In this document: positions 3,577 to 55,348 of the stretch, in pieces | How positions within the stretch are numbered: position 1 is the first letter of the stretch | Layout of the letters: each line of letters opens with the position of its first letter | Assembly (NCBI GenBank): GCA_018396535.1 | Contig: JAGTQC010000005.1 | Span: 64,001 to 128,000, forward strand | DNA: 64,000 bases | From: Candidatus Bathyarchaeota archaeon | GTDB lineage: Archaea > Thermoproteota > CALKCG01 > B24 > DRYS01 | Direction of reading: 5' to 3' | Position numbers and translations under genes: made by a program | Notes under the pieces: model-generated | Databases searched by the model: none | What the model was told of the DNA's origin: nothing | The model's input: the letters and a program-made list of their open reading frames with translations, nothing else

Positions 3577-4287
3577 ATGCAACGCTACATATCTAGAAGA
3601 GCTATGGTAGGTAAAGCCTGTATAGGGTTGAATTCTACGATATTAGGTGCAAGCGTAATCGGTGATGGTAGTTTCATAGATTCGTATACGATCTTAGGTT
3701 ATCCTACCAGGCATAAAATTATGAAGCTACTCGAAAACGACTATATAGACTACGATGCTTTAGATAGCTTCAGCGAAGGCTGCCGCATAGGTAGTCGATG
3801 CATAGTTAGATCAAATACCATAATCTATGAATACACAAATATAAGCGATGATGTCGAGATAGGTCATGACGTACTAGTAAGAGAGTTTGTCTATATAGAT
3901 AGTTCTACACGTATAGGATCTCATACAGTCATAGATGGCTATGTAGAGATAGGTAAGAAGGTTAATATACAGACTGGCTGTTATATCCCACCTAAAGCTA
4001 TCATAGAGGATAGAGTATTCATAGGACCGTATACATTAATCCTAAATGATAAGTATCCTCCTAGCGGTAGACTTGTAGGCTCTAGGATATGCCATGACGC
4101 TATCATAGGTGCCGGAGTAACCATACTACCGGGAGTAGTAGTAGGCGAGGGGGCTGTCGTAGCTGCAGGGGCGCTCGTTACCAGAAATGTCGAACCATAT
4201 ACCGTCGTTAAAGGTAGACCTGCTAGACTATGTTACTCCAGGGATGAGTATGAAGAGAGAAAGAGAAGGTATATCAATCAAGCCTAG
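3577..4287 (+). CDS. Hexapeptide-repeat (left-handed beta-helix) acyltransferase
   Basis: Repeated [LIV]G hexads, NDKYPP and IGAGVTILPGVVVGEGAVVAAG. Confidence 0.88.
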   Translation: MQRYISRRAMVGKACIGLNSTILGASVIGDGSFIDSYTILGYPTRHKIMKLLENDYIDYDALDSFSEGCRIGSRCIVRSNTIIYEYTNISDDVEIGHDVLVREFVYIDSSTRIGSHTVIDGYVEIGKKVNIQTGCYIPPKAIIEDRVFIGPYTLILNDKYPPSGRLVGSRICHDAIIGAGVTILPGVVVGEGAVVAAGALVTRNVEPYTVVKGRPARLCYSRDEYEERKRRYINQA

Positions 4288-4511
4288 GGTTGGAGTTCTA
4301 GAAGTGTTTCGGTAGATGTAACGTTAGGTAACCTGTTTATTTCAAGAACCGCTCGGCATATATCCCCTACAACTGGAGCTTCTATGAAGGCTACTAAATC
4401 ATACCTACCAAAGGTAAAGAATGCCTTTGTAACACCCTTAATCTTCCTTACAGATTCCAGTGTACCTATTACACCCTTTGGCTCTAGTTTAACGAAAACT
4501 ATAGCTTTCAT
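4284..4511 (-). CDS. Stand-alone Lrp/AsnC ligand-binding (RAM) domain protein
   Basis: 75 aa with the GRYDLVAFIEA and STETL pattern. Confidence 0.85.
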   Translation of the reverse strand: MKAIVFVKLEPKGVIGTLESVRKIKGVTKAFFTFGRYDLVAFIEAPVVGDICRAVLEINRLPNVTSTETLLELQP

Positions 4512-4523
4512 CTAATATTCACC

Positions 4524-4757
4524 TCATGTAGATGGGAATATTATGAGGGTCTCCGTAGATTTAACCCCCCTCACCTGAGCTAGTTTAAGTACATTTTCTC
4601 CAAGTCCCTTCAAATCCTCCGCTTCTATCTCTACTACAAAATCCCAGCGGCCTAATGTAGCTGTAACCGATCTAACACCCTTCGCTTTACTAAGTTCTAG
4701 ATTTAATATTTCGAAAGAACCCGGCTTAGCTTCTATCAGTACGATAGCCTCTATCAA
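4524..4757 (-). CDS. Stand-alone Lrp/AsnC ligand-binding (RAM) domain protein
   Basis: 77 aa with GRWDFVVEIEA and KSTETLI; tandem paralogue of the neighbouring gene. Confidence 0.85.
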   Translation of the reverse strand: MIEAIVLIEAKPGSFEILNLELSKAKGVRSVTATLGRWDFVVEIEAEDLKGLGENVLKLAQVRGVKSTETLIIFPST

Positions 4758-44644: not shown

Positions 44645-45502
44645 GTGAACGTAGATGCAGCTATACTTAACGATGTACTATCAAACTTAGAGCAGATAGT
44701 ATCGAAGTATGAGTATTTTACAAGCGATGTAGCTGCTGAACTTAAGAGTATTTGTAGAGGCCTACATCCAGTAGTGGTTAGACGTATATATGTATCGGTT
44801 AGAGGGTTACTTACACCGAAACCGAAGGTTTATAATGGTTTATTCATAGCCGTATCTGGTATCGATAAATCTGGTAAAGAGACGCAATGCTTTAATCCAA
44901 ATCATCTAGAGGGTGTAGTATCGGTTAAAGACCTACTTAAAAACTATGGTTACCGTGTATACGCTGTAAGTTTACCAAGCTATAATACCGTTTTAGGCTC
45001 GCTTGTTGGAGCATACATAGGGAGGAGTGATACTAGGTATAGGATAGTATTGACTGGGAGGATAGATGATGATTTAGCTTGGATTTTGTGGAGCTTAGAT
45101 AGGGGACAGTATGCTGAAAGAGTTTCGAAGATACTTCTAGATGGAGGCTCCGCTATACTAGCTAAGAGATGGACTGAGAGCAATCTTGCATATCAGGCTG
45201 CTAAAGGTATAGATCCGTCTAGGATACTACTCTTCGAGAGGAATATACCTCAACCGAGTTTAACTATAGTGATAGATATACCTGTAGAGGAGGTTCTACG
45301 TAGGGTTAAAGATCCAGATCTATACGAGCGGAGTAGTAGATATCTAGATATGGTTCGTAAGATGTATTTCAAGCTGATAGAGGATGGATTAATAAGATCT
45401 ACTATCATAGTTAACGGTCTAGGTAAGCCGGAGGATGTTAATCGAAGATTAATAGCGGTAATACGCCATGCTATACCTAGGAGACGAGTACAGGAGGGTT
45501 GA
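44645..45502 (+). CDS. tmk: Thymidylate kinase with about 60-aa N-terminal extension
   Basis: P-loop GIDKSGKETQ, RWTESNLAYQ and P.LTIVID. Confidence 0.75.
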   Translation: MNVDAAILNDVLSNLEQIVSKYEYFTSDVAAELKSICRGLHPVVVRRIYVSVRGLLTPKPKVYNGLFIAVSGIDKSGKETQCFNPNHLEGVVSVKDLLKNYGYRVYAVSLPSYNTVLGSLVGAYIGRSDTRYRIVLTGRIDDDLAWILWSLDRGQYAERVSKILLDGGSAILAKRWTESNLAYQAAKGIDPSRILLFERNIPQPSLTIVIDIPVEEVLRRVKDPDLYERSSRYLDMVRKMYFKLIEDGLIRSTIIVNGLGKPEDVNRRLIAVIRHAIPRRRVQEG

Positions 45503-45907
45503 GCTTGCTTAAAGCTTCGATAACCTCTCGTATACTATTCATCCTAAATAACAAATTTAATGAGTATGATAGCTTATGCATTTATATATGAATCAATTCT
45601 TGAATAATAGTCTCTTAATTAACTGTTTCATCTTCTCCTACTTTCTAGGCTTCTTCATCGAATCTGATAGTCTAAAGCCTAGAATAGTGGGAAGGTAGAG
45701 TAAAGAAGCGAAGGTAGTGTAGGGAAACAATATCTATGAACGCGACTATGGATCTTGGAAAGGATGTAGTTATGAAAATCGAAGGGAAGGGATGGGGGTA
45801 CCTCACCCATAAGGATTGGCTATGATTAGAATGTTATGGAAGCTTTAATAGAATTGAGGATTAGGAAACCCTTATATCCTCCTTAGATCACCTCTTCGTA
45901 GGGAGGT

Positions 45908-46186
45908 ATGAAAGTACCCACCTCTATAAACACCTACTGCCCTAAATGTAGAGCGAAGACTGAGCATAAGGTATCGATATATAGACGTGGTAAGGAGAGC
46001 TCTCTCAGAAAGGGTGCTAGGCATCATGAATGGCAACTGCATGGGTATGGTGGACAGAAATTCCCTGAGCAGAGGAAGCATGCTAAAACTACTAAGAAAC
46101 AGGTTATACTATTAAGTTGTGTTAAATGTGGTTATACTCTTCATCGTTTAGGTGTAAGACTTAGTAAGCTAGAGGTTAAACATTAG
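45908..46186 (+). CDS. rpl44e: 50S ribosomal protein L44e (eL42)
   Basis: TYCPKC, GYGGQKFP, AKTTKK and CVKCG. Confidence 0.96.
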   Translation: MKVPTSINTYCPKCRAKTEHKVSIYRRGKESSLRKGARHHEWQLHGYGGQKFPEQRKHAKTTKKQVILLSCVKCGYTLHRLGVRLSKLEVKH

Positions 46187-46232
46187 GTAGCATAAAGATT
46201 AATTAGTTTCGAGAATTACTAATCTTTTAGCT

Positions 46233-46486
46233 ATGCCGAAAGCATTCGTCCTCATAAATGCTGAGATAGGGTATGAGAGTGAAGTATTGAAATCTTTGAA
46301 GAAGATAGAGAATGTGAAGGAAGCATATATGGTGTATGGTATATATGATATAATCGTTAGGGTAGAAAGGGGTTGTTAAACCCCCTATAAGCCGATAGTA
46401 TGGAGAAGCTTAAGGAGATAGTTACGTGGAAGATAAGGAGATTAGAGCATGTTCAGAGTACTCTAACGATGATAGTCATAGAGTAG
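46233..46486 (+). CDS. Intron-containing stand-alone Lrp/AsnC (RAM) domain protein: join(46233..46367,46391..46486), 76 aa
   Basis: Spliced translation MPKAFVLINAEIGYESEVLKSLKKIENVKEAYMVYGIYDIIVRVE|ADSMEKLKEIVTWKIRRLEHVQSTLTMIVIE* matches the G.YD....EA and ST.T motifs of the paralogues at 4284-4757. Confidence 0.88.
46368..46390 (+). other. Putative 23-nt bulge-helix-bulge (BHB) mRNA intron
   Basis: AGGGGTTGTTAAACCCCCTATAA; central helix GUAG/CUAU, bulges AAA and AAG, intron stem GGGGUU/AACCCC. Canonical cuts restore the frame. Confidence 0.8.
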
Positions 46487-46497
46487 ACGTAGAATCT

Positions 46498-47124
46498 CTA
46501 GATACCATGTAGTCTAATCTTAAACGCTGAGAGGATAAGTCTTAGAAGTGTAGAGGATACTACAGGTATACTAGATTCATCTACGAACGATGCTATCAGA
46601 CCTACAGCATCGATTTTTTTAATCCTAGCTAAGCCTACTATCAACCCTGAAAGACCTTCAACTCTACTTCTAGAGATAGTCTTAACATTGTATCCCTTGA
46701 ATATGTCTAGGAGATTTCTCCTAGAAGCGAATGCTAGTATATCCTCGCTACTCGATTTAATCCCATCCAACGCTACTACGAGTCTGCATCTATATCTACG
46801 TGTATAGTCTAGTATAAGACCTGCTATCTCATAGTATGGTTCTGGGCTGACCGGGCTAGGTTGAACCCTAGCTTCAACTAGTATAATCCTAGGATCTGAA
46901 TCCGATATATAGTACCATTCATAGCTGTTCAGTTTAGCTAAACCTAGCTCATCTATATCTGTATAATCTGGATTATAGGGAGTATACATGTGAGCGAATA
47001 ACGCTCCTCCAGCTATAGACCTCATTTTCCTAAGAGTTAAATATCCAACCTCCCCCACCCCTACCAATAGTATAGATGGTTCGATACCTTCTTCACGGAT
47101 GATTCTTAAACTCGTCTTCAACAT
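46498..47124 (-). CDS. PAC2-family proteasome assembly chaperone
   Basis: G.GEVG, QP, VVALDG and GLSGLIVG..GL pattern. Confidence 0.75.
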   Translation of the reverse strand: MLKTSLRIIREEGIEPSILLVGVGEVGYLTLRKMRSIAGGALFAHMYTPYNPDYTDIDELGLAKLNSYEWYYISDSDPRIILVEARVQPSPVSPEPYYEIAGLILDYTRRYRCRLVVALDGIKSSSEDILAFASRRNLLDIFKGYNVKTISRSRVEGLSGLIVGLARIKKIDAVGLIASFVDESSIPVVSSTLLRLILSAFKIRLHGI

Positions 47125-47291: not shown

Positions 47292-49298
47292 TTGGTATTC
47301 ATCTTTGGTGTAGACTATTATCCTGAGCATTGGCCTAGGAGTAGATGGGATATCGATGCCGAGCTTATGTCTGAGTTATGCTTTAACACCGTACGTCTAG
47401 CAGAGTTTTCTTGGAGTAGGATAGAGCCTAGGGATGGTGTATATGATTTCGGATGGTTAGATGAAGCTATCGATATACTAGCTAAGAAGGGTATAAGGGT
47501 TATACTAGGTACTCCTACCGCAGCTCCTCCACCATGGCTTATAAGAAAGTATCCAGATATCCTACGTATAGATCCTAACGGTATTAGAGCTCCCGCTGGG
47601 ACTAGGAGGAATTACTGTCCGAATAATCCAAACTATATAATGCATACTAAGAGGATAGTCGAGAGGATGGCTTCGCACTATAAGGATAACCCTCATATCA
47701 TCGGCTGGCAGATAGATAATGAATTCGGGATAGATCCATGCTACTGTGATAACTGTATAGAAGCTTTTAGAAGCTGGTTGAGGGAGAAGTATCGGGATAT
47801 AGATTTACTGAATAAGTTTTGGGGCTCCATATTTTGGAGTCAGGAGTATAGGGATTGGGGTGAGATACAGCCACCTAAGCCTCCTTTGGATATGCAGAAT
47901 CCTAGTCTATGCCTTGATTGGCATAGATTCATGAATGATTCATGGGTGAGCTACCAGAAAATACAGGTGAATATTATCCGTAGGATCGCACCCCATCATA
48001 TAGTCACGCATAATCTTATGGGGTTGTATAAGGAGCTCGACTACTTTAAACTAGCTGAACCGCTGGATGTAGTCTCGTTCGATTACTATCCTAAGCGTAG
48101 TCTAACCGTAGACTATGCGAGGGGGGCTATGGCTCACGATGTTATGCGTAGTTTAAAGAAGAAGGGTTACTGGGTTATGGAGCTTCAAAGTGGAGCTATA
48201 AAAGCTCCTATGGCTCCTATACCTAAACCTGGTGAGATAAGGCTTTGGACTTTCCAATCGGTGGCAAGGGGGGCTGATGGAATACTATACTTTAGATGGA
48301 GATCTTGTAGGTTTGGAGCTGAAGAGTATTGGCACGGTATCTTAGATCATGATGGTATTCCTAGAAGGAGGTTCTCAGAGGTTAAGAAGGTATCGGAGGA
48401 TCTTAGGAAGGTGGCTCCGTATATAGAGGGCACGATAGTTAAGCCTGAGATAGCCTTCACCCTAGTCTACGATAGCATCTGGGCTTGGGATCTAGAATTA
48501 ACTTATGGTGGAAGAAATTATTATGGTCTAGGCTCATGGGATCCAGCTCTGGATGTATATAGAGCGTTATACTCTAGGAATCTACCAGTGGATTTTGTCA
48601 ACCCATATAGAGATGATCTATCTAGGTATAGGATCGTCTTCGCACCCCCACTCATCCTTATGGATAAGCATATAGAGGATCGTTTAAGAAGCTATGTCAG
48701 TGATGGGGGTATACTAGTAGCGGTACCTAGAACCGGGGTGAAGGATTGGAATAACGTTATAGTCGATTCTACACTACCAGGTGGTTTATCTGATGTATTC
48801 GGTATAAATCTGGAGGAGTATACTGGTCTACCAGATGAGAGTAGAGTATACGTAGAGATGGATGAAGCTATCTTCGGTAAGAAGGTGGTGGGATCGGGTA
48901 GGTGCTGGGCTGAGATGTTAGCATCTAGGGGAGCTGATATTATCGCATACTATAGATCCGGTATATATGATGGAAGGCCTGCTATAGCTATGAATAGGTA
49001 TGGTAGAGGTATCGCCATATATATCGGATCGTTTCTAGATACGAGTAGCTATATACCGCTGATAGATTGGTTGATTAGGATAGCTGATGTTAAGCCTATT
49101 CTACACCCGCTAGATGGGGTTGAAGCTATCGAGAGGATAGGTTCTGAAGGTAGGGTTGTATTCGTGTTAAACTATAATGAAAACTCGGTTAGCATACATC
49201 TAGAGGAGGAGTATCTAGATATTTTAGCCGGAGGAAGTGTTCGTGGAGATATAGGGGTCGACGGGTTGGATGTTAAGATACTTAGATCATCGAGTTAA
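47292..49298 (+). CDS. GH42 beta-galactosidase
   Basis: GVDYYPEHW, EFSWS, WQIDNE and WVMELQ. Confidence 0.95.
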   Translation: MVFIFGVDYYPEHWPRSRWDIDAELMSELCFNTVRLAEFSWSRIEPRDGVYDFGWLDEAIDILAKKGIRVILGTPTAAPPPWLIRKYPDILRIDPNGIRAPAGTRRNYCPNNPNYIMHTKRIVERMASHYKDNPHIIGWQIDNEFGIDPCYCDNCIEAFRSWLREKYRDIDLLNKFWGSIFWSQEYRDWGEIQPPKPPLDMQNPSLCLDWHRFMNDSWVSYQKIQVNIIRRIAPHHIVTHNLMGLYKELDYFKLAEPLDVVSFDYYPKRSLTVDYARGAMAHDVMRSLKKKGYWVMELQSGAIKAPMAPIPKPGEIRLWTFQSVARGADGILYFRWRSCRFGAEEYWHGILDHDGIPRRRFSEVKKVSEDLRKVAPYIEGTIVKPEIAFTLVYDSIWAWDLELTYGGRNYYGLGSWDPALDVYRALYSRNLPVDFVNPYRDDLSRYRIVFAPPLILMDKHIEDRLRSYVSDGGILVAVPRTGVKDWNNVIVDSTLPGGLSDVFGINLEEYTGLPDESRVYVEMDEAIFGKKVVGSGRCWAEMLASRGADIIAYYRSGIYDGRPAIAMNRYGRGIAIYIGSFLDTSSYIPLIDWLIRIADVKPILHPLDGVEAIERIGSEGRVVFVLNYNENSVSIHLEEEYLDILAGGSVRGDIGVDGLDVKILRSSS

Positions 49299-53953: not shown

Positions 53954-54030
53954 TGGAGCCTCGGGCGGGATTCGAACCCGCGACCCGCAGCTTACGAGGC
54001 TGCTGCTCTACCAGGCTGAGCTACCGAGGC
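53954..54030 (-). tRNA. tRNA-Thr(CGU), intronless, CCA encoded
   Basis: Reverse complement is identical to 10533-10606 except the anticodon is CGT, followed by CCA. Confidence 0.97.
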
Positions 54031-54913: not shown

Positions 54914-55348
54914 TTATAGATCTAGTATAAACCGTGCTTTCACACCTTCTTCATCTTTATAAACCTTCATCTGATGGTATGTTACAGCTTTGATACTAGT
55001 CTTAGATATATGTCTTCTAGGATCGTATACTTCACCTAAGATACGTGCTCTAAGCTTATACATATCATCCTCCATACCTATATACTCTACATCTATTTTA
55101 GAAGCTAGGAATCCATCTATATCAACCATTATTAATAGCTTCTCAAGCCAATCGTATAATAATGCTTCTAGATCCTCCCCCTCAGCTTCGATTATCCTCT
55201 CATCCCTAGGCTCGATTAGACTAGTATCAGTTATAACTTCGTAGAGAGCTAAACCTGCATTCTCGTAGCATTCTTCATAGCTTCCACCATAAGCTTCTAT
55301 ATAGGCATCGGCTGAATGCTCTAGGAATCTAAACCCTCCCATACCCAT
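54914..55348 (-). CDS. Archease (RtcB activator)
   Basis: FLEHSAD, LLYDWL and IKAVTYH. Confidence 0.95.
   Translation of the reverse strand: MGMGGFRFLEHSADAYIEAYGGSYEECYENAGLALYEVITDTSLIEPRDERIIEAEGEDLEALLYDWLEKLLIMVDIDGFLASKIDVEYIGMEDDMYKLRARILGEVYDPRRHISKTSIKAVTYHQMKVYKDEEGVKARFILDL

What the first reader, a model, noticed from the sequence alone, without database searches (positions are those of the whole stretch)
46233..46486. Candidate BHB-spliced mRNA intron in a Lrp/AsnC RAM-domain gene, hidden from the ORF track
Seen in sequence: ATG 46233 gives 45 RAM-domain codons ending ...IIVRVE at 46367. A 23-nt insert (46368-46390) with an in-frame TAA follows, then ADSMEKL...STLTMIVIE* resumes in another frame. 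The junction folds into a canonical bulge-helix-bulge. Exon pairs are G46360/G46361 with C46393/C46392 and the central helix is GUAG(46362-65)/CUAU(46385-88). The bulges are AAA(46366-68) and AAG(46389-91), and the intron stem is GGGGUU/AACCCC with a GUUA loop. Cutting after the second nucleotide of each bulge removes exactly 46368-46390. The product is a 76-aa protein whose VE|A junction aligns with IEA in the intact paralogues at 4284-4757. Unspliced, the product would be a 48-aa stub. Established: EndA cleaves BHB motifs and RtcB/archease ligates; BHB introns in archaeal mRNA are best known from crenarchaeal cbf5. Inference: the tRNA-splicing machinery processes a regulator mRNA here, possibly making its expression splicing-dependent. 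An archease gene lies about 8.5 kb away.
Basis: partly seen in the sequence, partly recalled or inferred. Interest (0 to 1): 0.95.

Follow-up and report, generated by a model that had tools for sequence, protein, structure and literature searches.

The report
tRNA-type intron in small RAM-domain gene
A 23-base insert that breaks a small amino-acid-sensor-type gene of a hot-spring archaeon is almost certainly an intron cut out of the mRNA by the tRNA-splicing enzymes. In print this is confirmed inside a coding sequence for only one archaeal gene (cbf5), but here it is one of several such introns in the same genome.

Summary
Exon 1 is 46233-46367, a 23-nt insert with an in-frame TAA is 46368-46390, and exon 2 is 46391-46486. 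The insert folds as bulge-helix-bulge (BHB), and the rule cuts restore a 76-aa RAM domain (Pfam positions 2-40 and 42-72).

- **Conservation:** All 14 other orthologues I found in the organism's class-level lineage (16 species genomes) were compared: 13 carry an insert of 21-32 nt at the same codon, and one lacks it precisely.
- **Structure and selection:** Helices keep pairing through compensatory changes. Both exons are under strong purifying selection (dN/dS 0.04 and 0.09).
- **Not an artefact:** An independent metagenome contig holds the insert.
- **Other sites:** In another order of the phylum the same gene carries BHB inserts at three other codons.
- **Not special to this gene:** The same genome has like inserts in cbf5 (at the published site), aEF-2, aIF5A, a radical-SAM gene and a DHH gene. 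It also encodes two EndA paralogues, RtcB and archease. The "regulatory switch" idea is therefore unsupported.
- **Missing:** I obtained no RNA read across the junction.
- **Earlier work:** This scan has already noted such mRNA introns on other DNA, including this gene family and this genome. In the papers I searched, only cbf5 is reported.

Verdict: a new member of a known kind.

The parts
46233..46367 (+). Exon 1: 45 codons, MPKAF...IIVRVE (N-terminal part of the RAM domain)
   Evidence: PF01037 profile positions 2-40, E 8e-6. dN/dS 0.04 among 14 orthologues.
46368..46390 (+). 23-nt BHB intron with an in-frame TAA at 46377-46379
   Evidence: Inserts of 21-32 nt lie at the same codon in the 13 other intron-bearing genomes.
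46391..46486 (+). Exon 2: 31 codons, ADSMEKL...TMIVIE, plus the TAG stop
   Evidence: PF01037 profile positions 42-72, E 1e-4. dN/dS 0.09.
46362..46365 (+). 5' strand (exonic, GUAG) of the central 4-bp helix H; pairs with 46385-46388 (CUAU)
   Evidence: Compensatory A-U to G-C change at the third pair, and G.U to G-C at the first, across genera.
46385..46388 (+). 3' strand (intronic, CUAU) of the central helix H
46366..46368 (+). 5' bulge AA|A; predicted cut after 46367
   Evidence: The A-N|A form recurs in every insert found.
46389..46391 (+). 3' bulge AA|G; predicted cut after 46390
46369..46384 (+). Intron hairpin h': GGGGUU / AACCCC with a GUUA loop
   Evidence: The stem sequence differs between genera but pairing is kept.
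46360..46361 (+). Exon-exon helix h, 5' side (GG); pairs with CC at 46392-46393. Weak at 2 bp; the MFE fold uses 46353-56 with 46393-96 instead.
   Evidence: 3 bp, CGG/CCG, in most relatives.
54917..55333 (-). Archease gene (cofactor of the RtcB ligase); part of the machinery, with no shown link to this locus
   Evidence: PF01951, E 3e-43.

Best explanation
The 23 nt at 46368-46390 are an archaeal bulge-helix-bulge (BHB) intron inside the coding sequence of a stand-alone RAM-domain gene.

Proposed mechanism:
- The gene is transcribed with the insert.
- The pre-mRNA folds so that the last exon-1 bases (GUAG) pair with the intron's 3' end (CUAU). This presents two 3-nt bulges separated by 4 bp, flanked on the intron side by a 6-bp G+C-rich hairpin.
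- The splicing endonuclease EndA cuts after the second base of each bulge. In this genome EndA is probably a two-subunit form.
- RtcB, helped by archease, joins the exons to read ...GUA GAA|GCC GAU...
- Only the spliced mRNA encodes the 76-aa protein. The unspliced mRNA gives a 48-aa stub.

What is shown here: the geometry, its conservation with compensatory changes, selection on both exons, intron-less alleles, presence of the machinery, and sister introns in the same genome.

What is inferred: the cutting and joining themselves.

The intron is best seen as one member of a genome-wide population of mRNA mini-introns in this lineage. It does not look like a device special to this gene.
For: 1. 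**Exact domain restoration.** Pfam PF01037 matches positions 2-40 in exon 1 and 42-72 in exon 2. The spliced product is 76 aa.
2. **Canonical register.** The order is h, H (4 bp), 3-nt bulge, h' on the 5' strand and h', H, 3-nt bulge, h on the 3' strand. The cuts after the second bulge base equal the junction defined by homology. The chance of this at a fixed junction is 8.5e-6 at this quality.
3. **Conservation.** The class-level lineage holds 16 species genomes, and I found the orthologue in 15 of them.
   - 14 genomes in 5 genera of 4 families carry an insert of 21, 22, 23, 30, 31 or 32 nt at the same codon. Some inserts are in frame but contain stop codons.
   - One genome (G003) has a precise intron-less allele.
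   - No orthologue was found in G005, which is 82% complete.
4. **Covariation.** 93.8% of cells are paired, against 37-54% when the partners are slid. Four pairs change on both sides, and 0 of 500 shuffles reach the observed score. H reads GUAG/CUAU, GUAG/CUAC, GUGG/CCAC or GUGG/CCAU.
5. **Selection.** dN/dS is 0.04 for exon 1 and 0.09 for exon 2, at dS about 1.3.
6. **Real DNA.** A 740-nt contig of an independent hot-spring metagenome covers 45879-46618 with no gap (X8 record 16). 20 runs from 11 studies hold at least part of the locus.
7. **Machinery.**
   - There are two EndA paralogues. One is nearest the catalytic subunit of the Aeropyrum pernix heterotetramer, 3p1z_B. The other is nearest the M. 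kandleri and M. jannaschii enzymes and matches the A. pernix structural subunit only weakly.
   - RtcB and archease are also encoded.
8. **Internal positive control.** cbf5 of this genome carries a 34-nt insert of the same architecture. It splits the catalytic Asp codon as G|AT, which is the position published for crenarchaeal cbf5 introns (PMC2738675).
9. **Sister introns.** Like inserts restore conserved motifs in aEF-2, aIF5A, an AmrS-like radical-SAM gene and a DHH gene.
10. **Other sites in the same gene.** In another order of the phylum, BHB inserts lie at codon 12 (7 genomes of one genus), codon 60 (8 genomes of two genera) and codon 53 (1 genome). In each case the BHB-rule cuts restore the frame.
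Against: - **No RNA evidence.** The single metatranscriptome that holds part of the locus has a contig over the neighbouring L44e gene but nothing over 46174-46389.
- **No spliced product on record.** The public protein collection holds only the 48-54-aa stubs for the intron-bearing lineages and no spliced-length product.
- **Weak outer helix.** It is only 2 bp in this genome, and the MFE fold chooses a different outer pairing.
- **Mismatches in one genus.** Two genomes of genus g5 have a mismatch (U.C or U.U) at the second pair of the central helix.
- **Unremarkable energy.** The local folding energy is not significantly lower than that of shuffled sequence.
Confidence: 0.9

Rival explanations
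1. Regulatory gate. The insert is a real BHB intron that has been retained because splicing controls how much RAM protein is made, for example by coupling an amino-acid sensor to tRNA-splicing capacity. This would parallel HAC1/XBP1 splicing.
For: Expression does depend on splicing, because the unspliced mRNA gives a 48-aa stub. The gene has gained or kept introns at four different codons in different lineages. An archease gene lies 8.5 kb away.
Against: The same genome has the same kind of insert in cbf5, aEF-2, aIF5A, a radical-SAM gene and a DHH gene. An intron is therefore not special to this gene. Relatives do well without it: G003 and most genomes of other orders have intron-less alleles. 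No ligand-responsive or alternative structure was found. Archease shows no conserved linkage to this gene.
Confidence: 0.1
2. Pseudogene. A 23-bp insertion has inactivated the gene and exon 2 is no longer translated.
For: The insert has an in-frame stop and shifts the frame. Gene callers report only a 48-aa product.
Against: Exon 2 has dN/dS 0.09 at dS about 1.3 and stays open in all 14 intron-bearing genomes. Inserts of different lengths always sit at the same codon and always fold as BHB.
Confidence: 0.02
3. Translational recoding. Ribosomes bypass or frameshift over the hairpin, as in phage T4 gene 60, so no RNA splicing is needed.
For: A stable hairpin follows the last exon-1 codon. Bypassing tolerates gaps of variable length.
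Against: There are no matched take-off and landing codons (GAA before the insert, GCC after it). Insert lengths are 21-32 nt in all three phases, and some contain two stop codons. What is conserved is the BHB geometry specifically: 4-bp H and 3-nt bulges, with exonic bases paired to the intron's 3' end. Bypassing does not require that geometry. The same architecture occurs at the cbf5 site, where RNA splicing has been reported in Crenarchaeota (PMC2738675).
Confidence: 0.03
4. Split gene. The two halves are made as separate peptides, 48 aa and about 28 aa starting at ATG 46400, which then assemble into one RAM fold.
For: An ATG at 46400 opens a 28-aa ORF in the exon-2 frame.
Against: That Met is an internal, conserved residue of intron-less orthologues as well (ADSMDKL). 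I saw no ribosome-binding or promoter signal ahead of it. The idea does not explain the conserved BHB pairing between exon 1 and the end of the insert.
Confidence: 0.03

Closest known systems
BHB intron of the cbf5 (pseudouridine synthase) pre-mRNA in Crenarchaeota (Watanabe 2002; Yoshinari 2006; Yokobori 2009, PMC2738675)
   Same: Both are short inserts inside a coding sequence with a relaxed BHB at the exon-intron borders. The predicted cuts fall after the second bulge base. Both occur in organisms with a hetero-oligomeric EndA, and both are patchily gained or lost among relatives. The cbf5 intron itself is present in this genome at the published position, splitting the catalytic Asp codon as G|AT.
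   Different: The gene is different, a 76-aa stand-alone RAM module. The lineage is different: records are titled Candidatus Bathyarchaeia, and it forms a small class of its own in the genome collection. The insert is shorter (21-32 nt). The same gene is interrupted at four different codons in different lineages, whereas the cbf5 paper I read assigns the cbf5 intron to a single position.
BHB intron in the 5' UTR of Haloferax volcanii HVO_1309 mRNA (Schwarz et al. 2020, PMC7714728)
   Same: An mRNA is a substrate of the tRNA-splicing endonuclease. That paper states that cbf5 was the only other mRNA example then known.
   Different: That intron lies in an untranslated leader of a euryarchaeon with a homodimeric EndA. 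Here the intron lies inside the reading frame and must be removed for the protein to be made.
Archaeal tRNA and rRNA BHB introns, including the non-canonical, multi-site tRNA introns of Thermoproteales
   Same: The motif, the cut rule and the enzymes are the same. Short introns occur at varied positions, with signs of repeated gain.
   Different: The host here is a protein-coding mRNA, so frame restoration is an additional constraint.
Stand-alone RAM modules (PDB 2zbc, 2cvi, 2e1a)
   Same: The intron-less orthologue matches 2zbc over residues 2-77 at E 1e-24. The family is the same size and has no HTH domain.
   Different: No intron is reported for those genes, as far as I know. The function of this orthologue group is unknown.

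Membership tests
Archaeal BHB (EndA/RtcB-spliced) intron | Two 3-nt bulges on opposite strands, separated by a 4-bp helix | tested here: met
   H is 46362-65 with 46385-88; the bulges are 46366-68 and 46389-91. 96.4% of cells in H are paired across 14 genomes.
Archaeal BHB (EndA/RtcB-spliced) intron | Flanking helices h (exon-exon) and h' (intron) | tested here: met
   h' is 6 bp. h is only 2 bp here and 3-4 bp in most relatives, which is the relaxed form.
Archaeal BHB (EndA/RtcB-spliced) intron | Cuts after the second base of each bulge give a functional joined RNA | tested here: met
   The rule cuts remove exactly 46368-46390 and restore a complete PF01037 domain. The same holds for the 30 related loci listed and, checked by eye, for L009 and L012. 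Together these cover four sites.
Archaeal BHB (EndA/RtcB-spliced) intron | Structure maintained in evolution by compensatory changes | tested here: met
   Four pairs change on both sides. The covariation score is 0.193 against 0.103 for shuffles (0 of 500 reach it). Slid controls give 37-54% paired.
Archaeal BHB (EndA/RtcB-spliced) intron | Genome encodes the endonuclease and the ligase | tested here: met
   Two EndA paralogues, RtcB and archease.
Archaeal BHB (EndA/RtcB-spliced) intron | Excision seen in RNA (spliced transcript or circular intron) | tested here: inconclusive
   The only RNA run holding part of the locus has no cover over the gene. No spliced-length protein is in the public collection. 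An earlier scan note (e1-5605886) reports an RNA-derived contig lacking a 22-nt insert in a small Lrp/AsnC (RAM-domain) gene of a related hot-spring archaeon. I could not check it.
Stand-alone RAM module (Lrp/AsnC ligand-binding domain without HTH) | A single PF01037 domain of about 75-80 aa with no DNA-binding domain | tested here: met
   The two exons cover profile positions 2-72 of 73. The total is 76 aa. The intron-less orthologue matches 2zbc at E 1e-24.
Full-length Lrp/AsnC transcription regulator | N-terminal HTH DNA-binding domain | tested here: not met
   The product starts 6 residues before the RAM domain. NCBIfam regulator models match only their C-terminal halves, far below their cut-offs.
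Pseudogene | Relaxed selection or decay downstream of the lesion | tested here: not met
   Exon 2 has dN/dS 0.09 and is open in all 14 intron-bearing genomes.
Programmed frameshift or translational bypass | A constant frame change with a slippery site, or matched take-off and landing codons | tested here: not met
   Insert lengths of 21-32 nt fall in all three phases, and the in-frame ones contain stops. No matched codons are present.

The most novel reading that the evidence does not exclude
In these Thermoproteota lineages, splicing of mRNA by the tRNA-splicing enzymes is routine and not a single-gene curiosity, and the mini-introns are (or recently were) mobile. The same 76-aa gene has been entered at four different codons in different lineages. 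Two of these sites lie in different genera of one family whose third sampled genus has none. Meanwhile the site-B intron has persisted across a whole class-level lineage. This would imply an intron-gain mechanism acting on protein genes, for example reverse splicing plus retro-recombination, and a sizeable set of genes that gene callers mis-annotate.
Probability: 0.5. Interest if true: 0.8.

Novelty: new member of a known kind. Interest (0 to 1): 0.62.

Why it matters
- **State of the literature.** The papers I could search report BHB introns inside coding sequences for one archaeal gene only, cbf5 (PMC2738675; PMC7714728 says so explicitly in 2020).
- **What this locus adds.** This locus and its sister introns in the same genome show that the tRNA-splicing machinery very probably processes several mRNAs in a hot-spring lineage. 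These include mRNAs for core translation factors.
- **Four sites in one gene.** They make this small gene a natural data set for asking how BHB introns are gained and lost in protein genes.
- **Annotation.** Gene callers report only a 48-aa stub here and a 60-aa fragment in a relative. Proteome and metabolic reconstructions of such MAGs therefore miss or truncate real genes.

Tried and rejected
- **RNA evidence.** One run search and one read-laying were allowed. The only RNA run (X12, 0.16 of the sampled words) has a contig on the L44e gene but no cover of 46174-46389. Its contigs at 46400 onward belong to other organisms whose intron-less alleles also occur in DNA runs. This is uninformative.
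- **Spliced product in the protein collection.** Exon-1 queries for this genus and for genus g3 returned only 48-54-aa stubs plus intron-less relatives at 87% identity or less.
- **Rfam.** Nothing relevant in 46000-46700. The bacterial-type promoter and terminator scan was uninformative.
- **Genome-wide scan.** The relaxed BHB-plus-ORF scan gave 54 hits against 38 for a decoy register, so it is mostly noise. I count only the inserts that restore a recognisable conserved motif. The candidate at C9:41515-41537, in an FGGY-type kinase, was not convincing.
- **Naming the second order** (sites A, C and D). A search for archaeal amoA found nothing, but its control also rang nowhere, so it is uninformative. 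Locus overlap with named records found none. An exact-protein look-up gave only a run accession.
- **Pseudogene, recoding and split-gene readings.** Considered and rejected; see the rival explanations.
- **Joined product.** I did not type the joined 76-aa sequence into any search. The exons were examined by reference, and the intron-less orthologue L013 stood in for the whole protein.

Full report
**1. The observation**

- ATG 46233 opens 45 codons that end IIVRVE at 46367. Read on unspliced, the frame gives R-G-C and then TAA, a 48-aa product.
- The downstream reading ADSMEKL...TMIVIE-stop (46391-46486) lies in another frame.
- Deleting 46368-46390 (23 nt) joins GAA|GCC and gives a 76-aa protein.
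- Pfam's Lrp/AsnC ligand-binding (RAM) domain PF01037 matches exon 1 at profile positions 2-40 and exon 2 at positions 42-72 of 73. The two pieces are adjacent halves of one domain with nothing missing.
- The two intact tandem paralogues at 4284-4511 and 4524-4757 (minus strand) read IEA at the matching place.

**2. The fold**

- the 4-bp helix GUAG (46362-65) with CUAU (46385-88);
- the 3-nt bulge AAA (46366-68);
- the 6-bp stem GGGGUU/AACCCC with a GUUA loop.

The order of elements on the 5' strand is outer helix, 4-bp helix, bulge, intron helix. On the 3' strand it is intron helix, 4-bp helix, bulge, outer helix. From established knowledge of the motif, this is the register of pre-tRNA BHB substrates.

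Cutting after the second base of each bulge removes exactly the 23 nt that homology says must go.

The outer helix is weak. This makes it a relaxed BHB.

Energy alone is unremarkable (z = -1.39). The geometry at a fixed junction is rare, though. Only 8.5e-6 of 19.7 million position pairs in this genome reach this quality, and 1.6e-4 meet a looser definition.

**3. Relatives**

The genome is 1.41 Mb in 14 contigs with 41% G+C. It comes from hot-spring metagenomes. Public records of its relatives are titled Candidatus Bathyarchaeia. In the genome collection its class holds only 16 species genomes, the same set as its order.

I found the orthologue in 15 of these 16 genomes.
- 14 genomes, in five genera of four families, carry an insert at the same codon, after ..RVE and before A-D/E-S/T-M. 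Insert lengths are 21, 22, 23, 30, 31 or 32 nt.
- The 21-nt and 30-nt inserts are in frame but contain stop codons.
- One genome (G003) has a precise intron-less allele..RVEADSMDRL...
- In G005, which is 82% complete, no orthologue was found.

**4. Covariation**

The central helix reads GUAG/CUAU or GUAG/CUAC in the window's genus, GUGG/CCAC in two genera and GUGG/CCAU in one. The synonymous A-to-G change in the Val codon is matched by U-to-C in the intron. The intron hairpins differ in sequence between genera but all pair.

On a 14-sequence alignment:
- 93.8% of cells form standard pairs, against 37-54% when the 3' partners are slid by 1-3 columns;
- four pairs show changes on both sides;
- none of 500 shuffles reaches the observed covariation score or percentage paired.

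Two genomes of one genus have a U.C or U.U mismatch at the second pair of the central helix.

Intron-less alleles use other synonymous codons at the junction: CGT GTT GAA, or AAG GTT GAA.

**5. Selection and reality of the DNA**

Among the 14 intron-bearing genes, dN/dS is 0.04 for exon 1 and 0.09 for exon 2, at dS about 1.3. Exon 2 is therefore translated in its own frame, which excludes a pseudogene.

A 740-nt contig from an independent hot-spring metagenome covers 45879-46618 without a gap. A roughly 91%-identical strain variant also keeps the insert. 20 runs from 11 studies hold at least part of the locus. It is not an assembly artefact.

**6. Machinery**

The genome encodes two EndA paralogues of 187 and 189 aa.
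- One is nearest the catalytic subunit of the Aeropyrum pernix heterotetramer (3p1z_B, E 7e-48).
- The other is nearest the Methanopyrus and Methanocaldococcus enzymes and matches the A. pernix structural subunit only weakly.

This fits a two-subunit enzyme of the broad-specificity kind. The subunit arrangement is inferred, not shown.

RtcB and archease (window 54917-55333, minus strand) are also present.

**7. Not a one-off in this genome**

My own scan for BHB geometry combined with ORF restoration was noisy when relaxed: 54 hits against 38 for a decoy register. It nevertheless recovered inserts of the same architecture that restore well-known motifs. That architecture is a 4-bp helix, an A-N|A bulge, a hairpin that is G+C-rich in most of them, the complementary strand, then an A-N|R bulge.

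| Gene | Insert | Junction |
|---|---|---|
| cbf5 | 34 nt | GHGGTL\|DP |
| aEF-2 | 32 nt | QIR\|NIGIIAHVDHGKT |
| aIF5A | 35 nt | SKPG\|KHGSAK |
| AmrS-like radical-SAM gene | 21 nt | PIE\|KKP |
| DHH phosphoesterase gene | 22 nt | THG\|DCDG |

The cbf5 insert splits the catalytic Asp codon as G|AT. [quoted passage not shown] For those introns, cDNA evidence of splicing has been reported. This is an internal positive control for the architecture.

Earlier notes of this scan list these same loci, plus aIF5B and SAM synthetase, in this genome. I did not verify the last two.

**8. Four sites in one gene**

In another order of the same phylum, most genomes have the intact gene. The exceptions are:

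| Site | Junction | Genomes | Insert length | Notes |
|---|---|---|---|---|
| Codon 12 | TEI\|G | All 7 genomes of one genus | 25-27 nt | H is UGAG/CUCA or CGAG/CUCG, a compensatory pair |
| Codon 60 | SWRI\|RRLDKV | 8 genomes of two genera | 29-39 nt | H is GAGG/CCUC; hairpins of 6-10 bp differ in sequence |
| Codon 53 | DRLK\|EIV | 1 genome | 29 nt | H is 3 of 4 pairs; 7-bp hairpin |

In every case the BHB-rule cuts restore the conserved protein.

The codon-12 and codon-60 sites lie in different genera of one family, and a third genus of that family has none. This points to repeated, fairly recent gain, although differential loss is not excluded. The site in the window is old by comparison, at class level.

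**9. What the protein is**

The intron-less orthologue matches the solved stand-alone RAM module 2zbc over residues 2-77 (E 1e-24) and the 75-aa Pyrococcus modules. NCBIfam regulator models match only through their C-terminal halves, far below their cut-offs.

The product is therefore a RAM module without a DNA-binding domain. It belongs to an orthologue group that is highly conserved in Thermoproteota and Asgard records. Its neighbours vary:
- L44e here;
- an E1-like gene and a metallo-beta-lactamase-fold gene in one lineage;
- Pcc1 and TiaS, identified by eye from the translations, in another.

Its function is unknown. From established knowledge of the fold, small-molecule sensing is the usual role.

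**10. Interpretation**

The best explanation is a BHB intron removed by EndA and joined by RtcB (confidence 0.9).

Housekeeping genes in the same genome carry the same kind of intron, and relatives thrive with intron-less alleles.

Pseudogene, translational bypass and split-gene readings are each contradicted by selection on exon 2, by the variety of insert lengths and phases, and by the conserved pairing between exon 1 and the intron's 3' end.

**11. What is missing**

- No RNA read across the junction was obtained. The one metatranscriptome holding part of the locus covers the L44e gene only.
- The public protein collection holds only stubs for the intron-bearing lineages.
- An earlier scan note (e1-5605886) reports an RNA-derived contig that lacks exactly a 22-nt insert in a small Lrp/AsnC (RAM-domain) gene of a related hot-spring archaeon. 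I could not check it and do not count it as evidence.

**12. Novelty**

- **In print.** A 2020 paper states that cbf5 is the only BHB intron reported in an archaeal mRNA apart from the 5'-UTR intron it describes (PMC7714728). The 2009 cbf5 paper notes that introns in other protein genes had only been predicted. My literature searches found nothing on Bathyarchaeia or RAM-domain genes.
- **Within this scan.** Such mRNA introns have already been noted many times on other DNA. This includes this gene family in relatives and another gene of this genome.
- **Classification.** The mechanism is that of cbf5, so I file this as a new member of a known kind. The four-site pattern and the class-wide persistence are the parts a specialist would find most notable.

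Noticed in passing
G000 C1:62867-62900 (+), outside the window (locus L179): cbf5 of this genome carries a 34-nt BHB insert that splits the catalytic Asp codon (G|AT). This is the position published for crenarchaeal cbf5 introns, so that intron also occurs in this Bathyarchaeia-labelled lineage.
   Followed up: yes
G000 C9:125139-125170 (-), C7:48986-49020 (+), C11:41481-41501 (+), C1:37658-37679 (+): Same-architecture inserts of 32, 35, 21 and 22 nt interrupt aEF-2, aIF5A (next to the hypusine lysine), an AmrS-like radical-SAM gene and a DHH phosphoesterase gene. Each restores a conserved motif when removed.
   Followed up: yes
L010, L163-L168 (codon 12); L169-L176 (codon 60); L177 (codon 53): In another order of the phylum, the orthologous RAM gene carries BHB inserts at three other codons. 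Gene callers report only a 60-aa fragment for the codon-12 form.
   Followed up: yes
window 4284-4511 and 4524-4757 (-): Two tandem stand-alone RAM-domain paralogues of 75 and 77 aa, both intact and without introns. They also give sub-threshold GYD and NapD matches.
   Followed up: partly
window 44645-45502 (+): A dTMP-kinase-like ORF of 285 aa with an N-terminal extension of about 60 aa. It scores below the equivalog cut-off (63 bits against 83), and its P-loop reads GIDKSGKET.
   Followed up: no
window 53954-54030 (-) and 54917-55333 (-): A tRNA-Thr(CGU) gene lies about 0.9 kb from the archease gene. No functional link was examined.
   Followed up: no
whole genome G000: ARAGORN finds only 36 tRNA genes in a genome that is 93% complete. 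Five are called with introns, including a doubtful tRNA-Val with an 844-nt 'intron' on C3. Non-canonical or multiple tRNA introns may hide the rest.
   Followed up: no
window 46498-47124 (-) and 47292-49298 (+): Downstream neighbours are a weakly matching proteasome-assembly-chaperone (PAC2-type) family protein and a 668-aa ORF that looks, by eye, like a GH42-type beta-galactosidase.
   Followed up: partly
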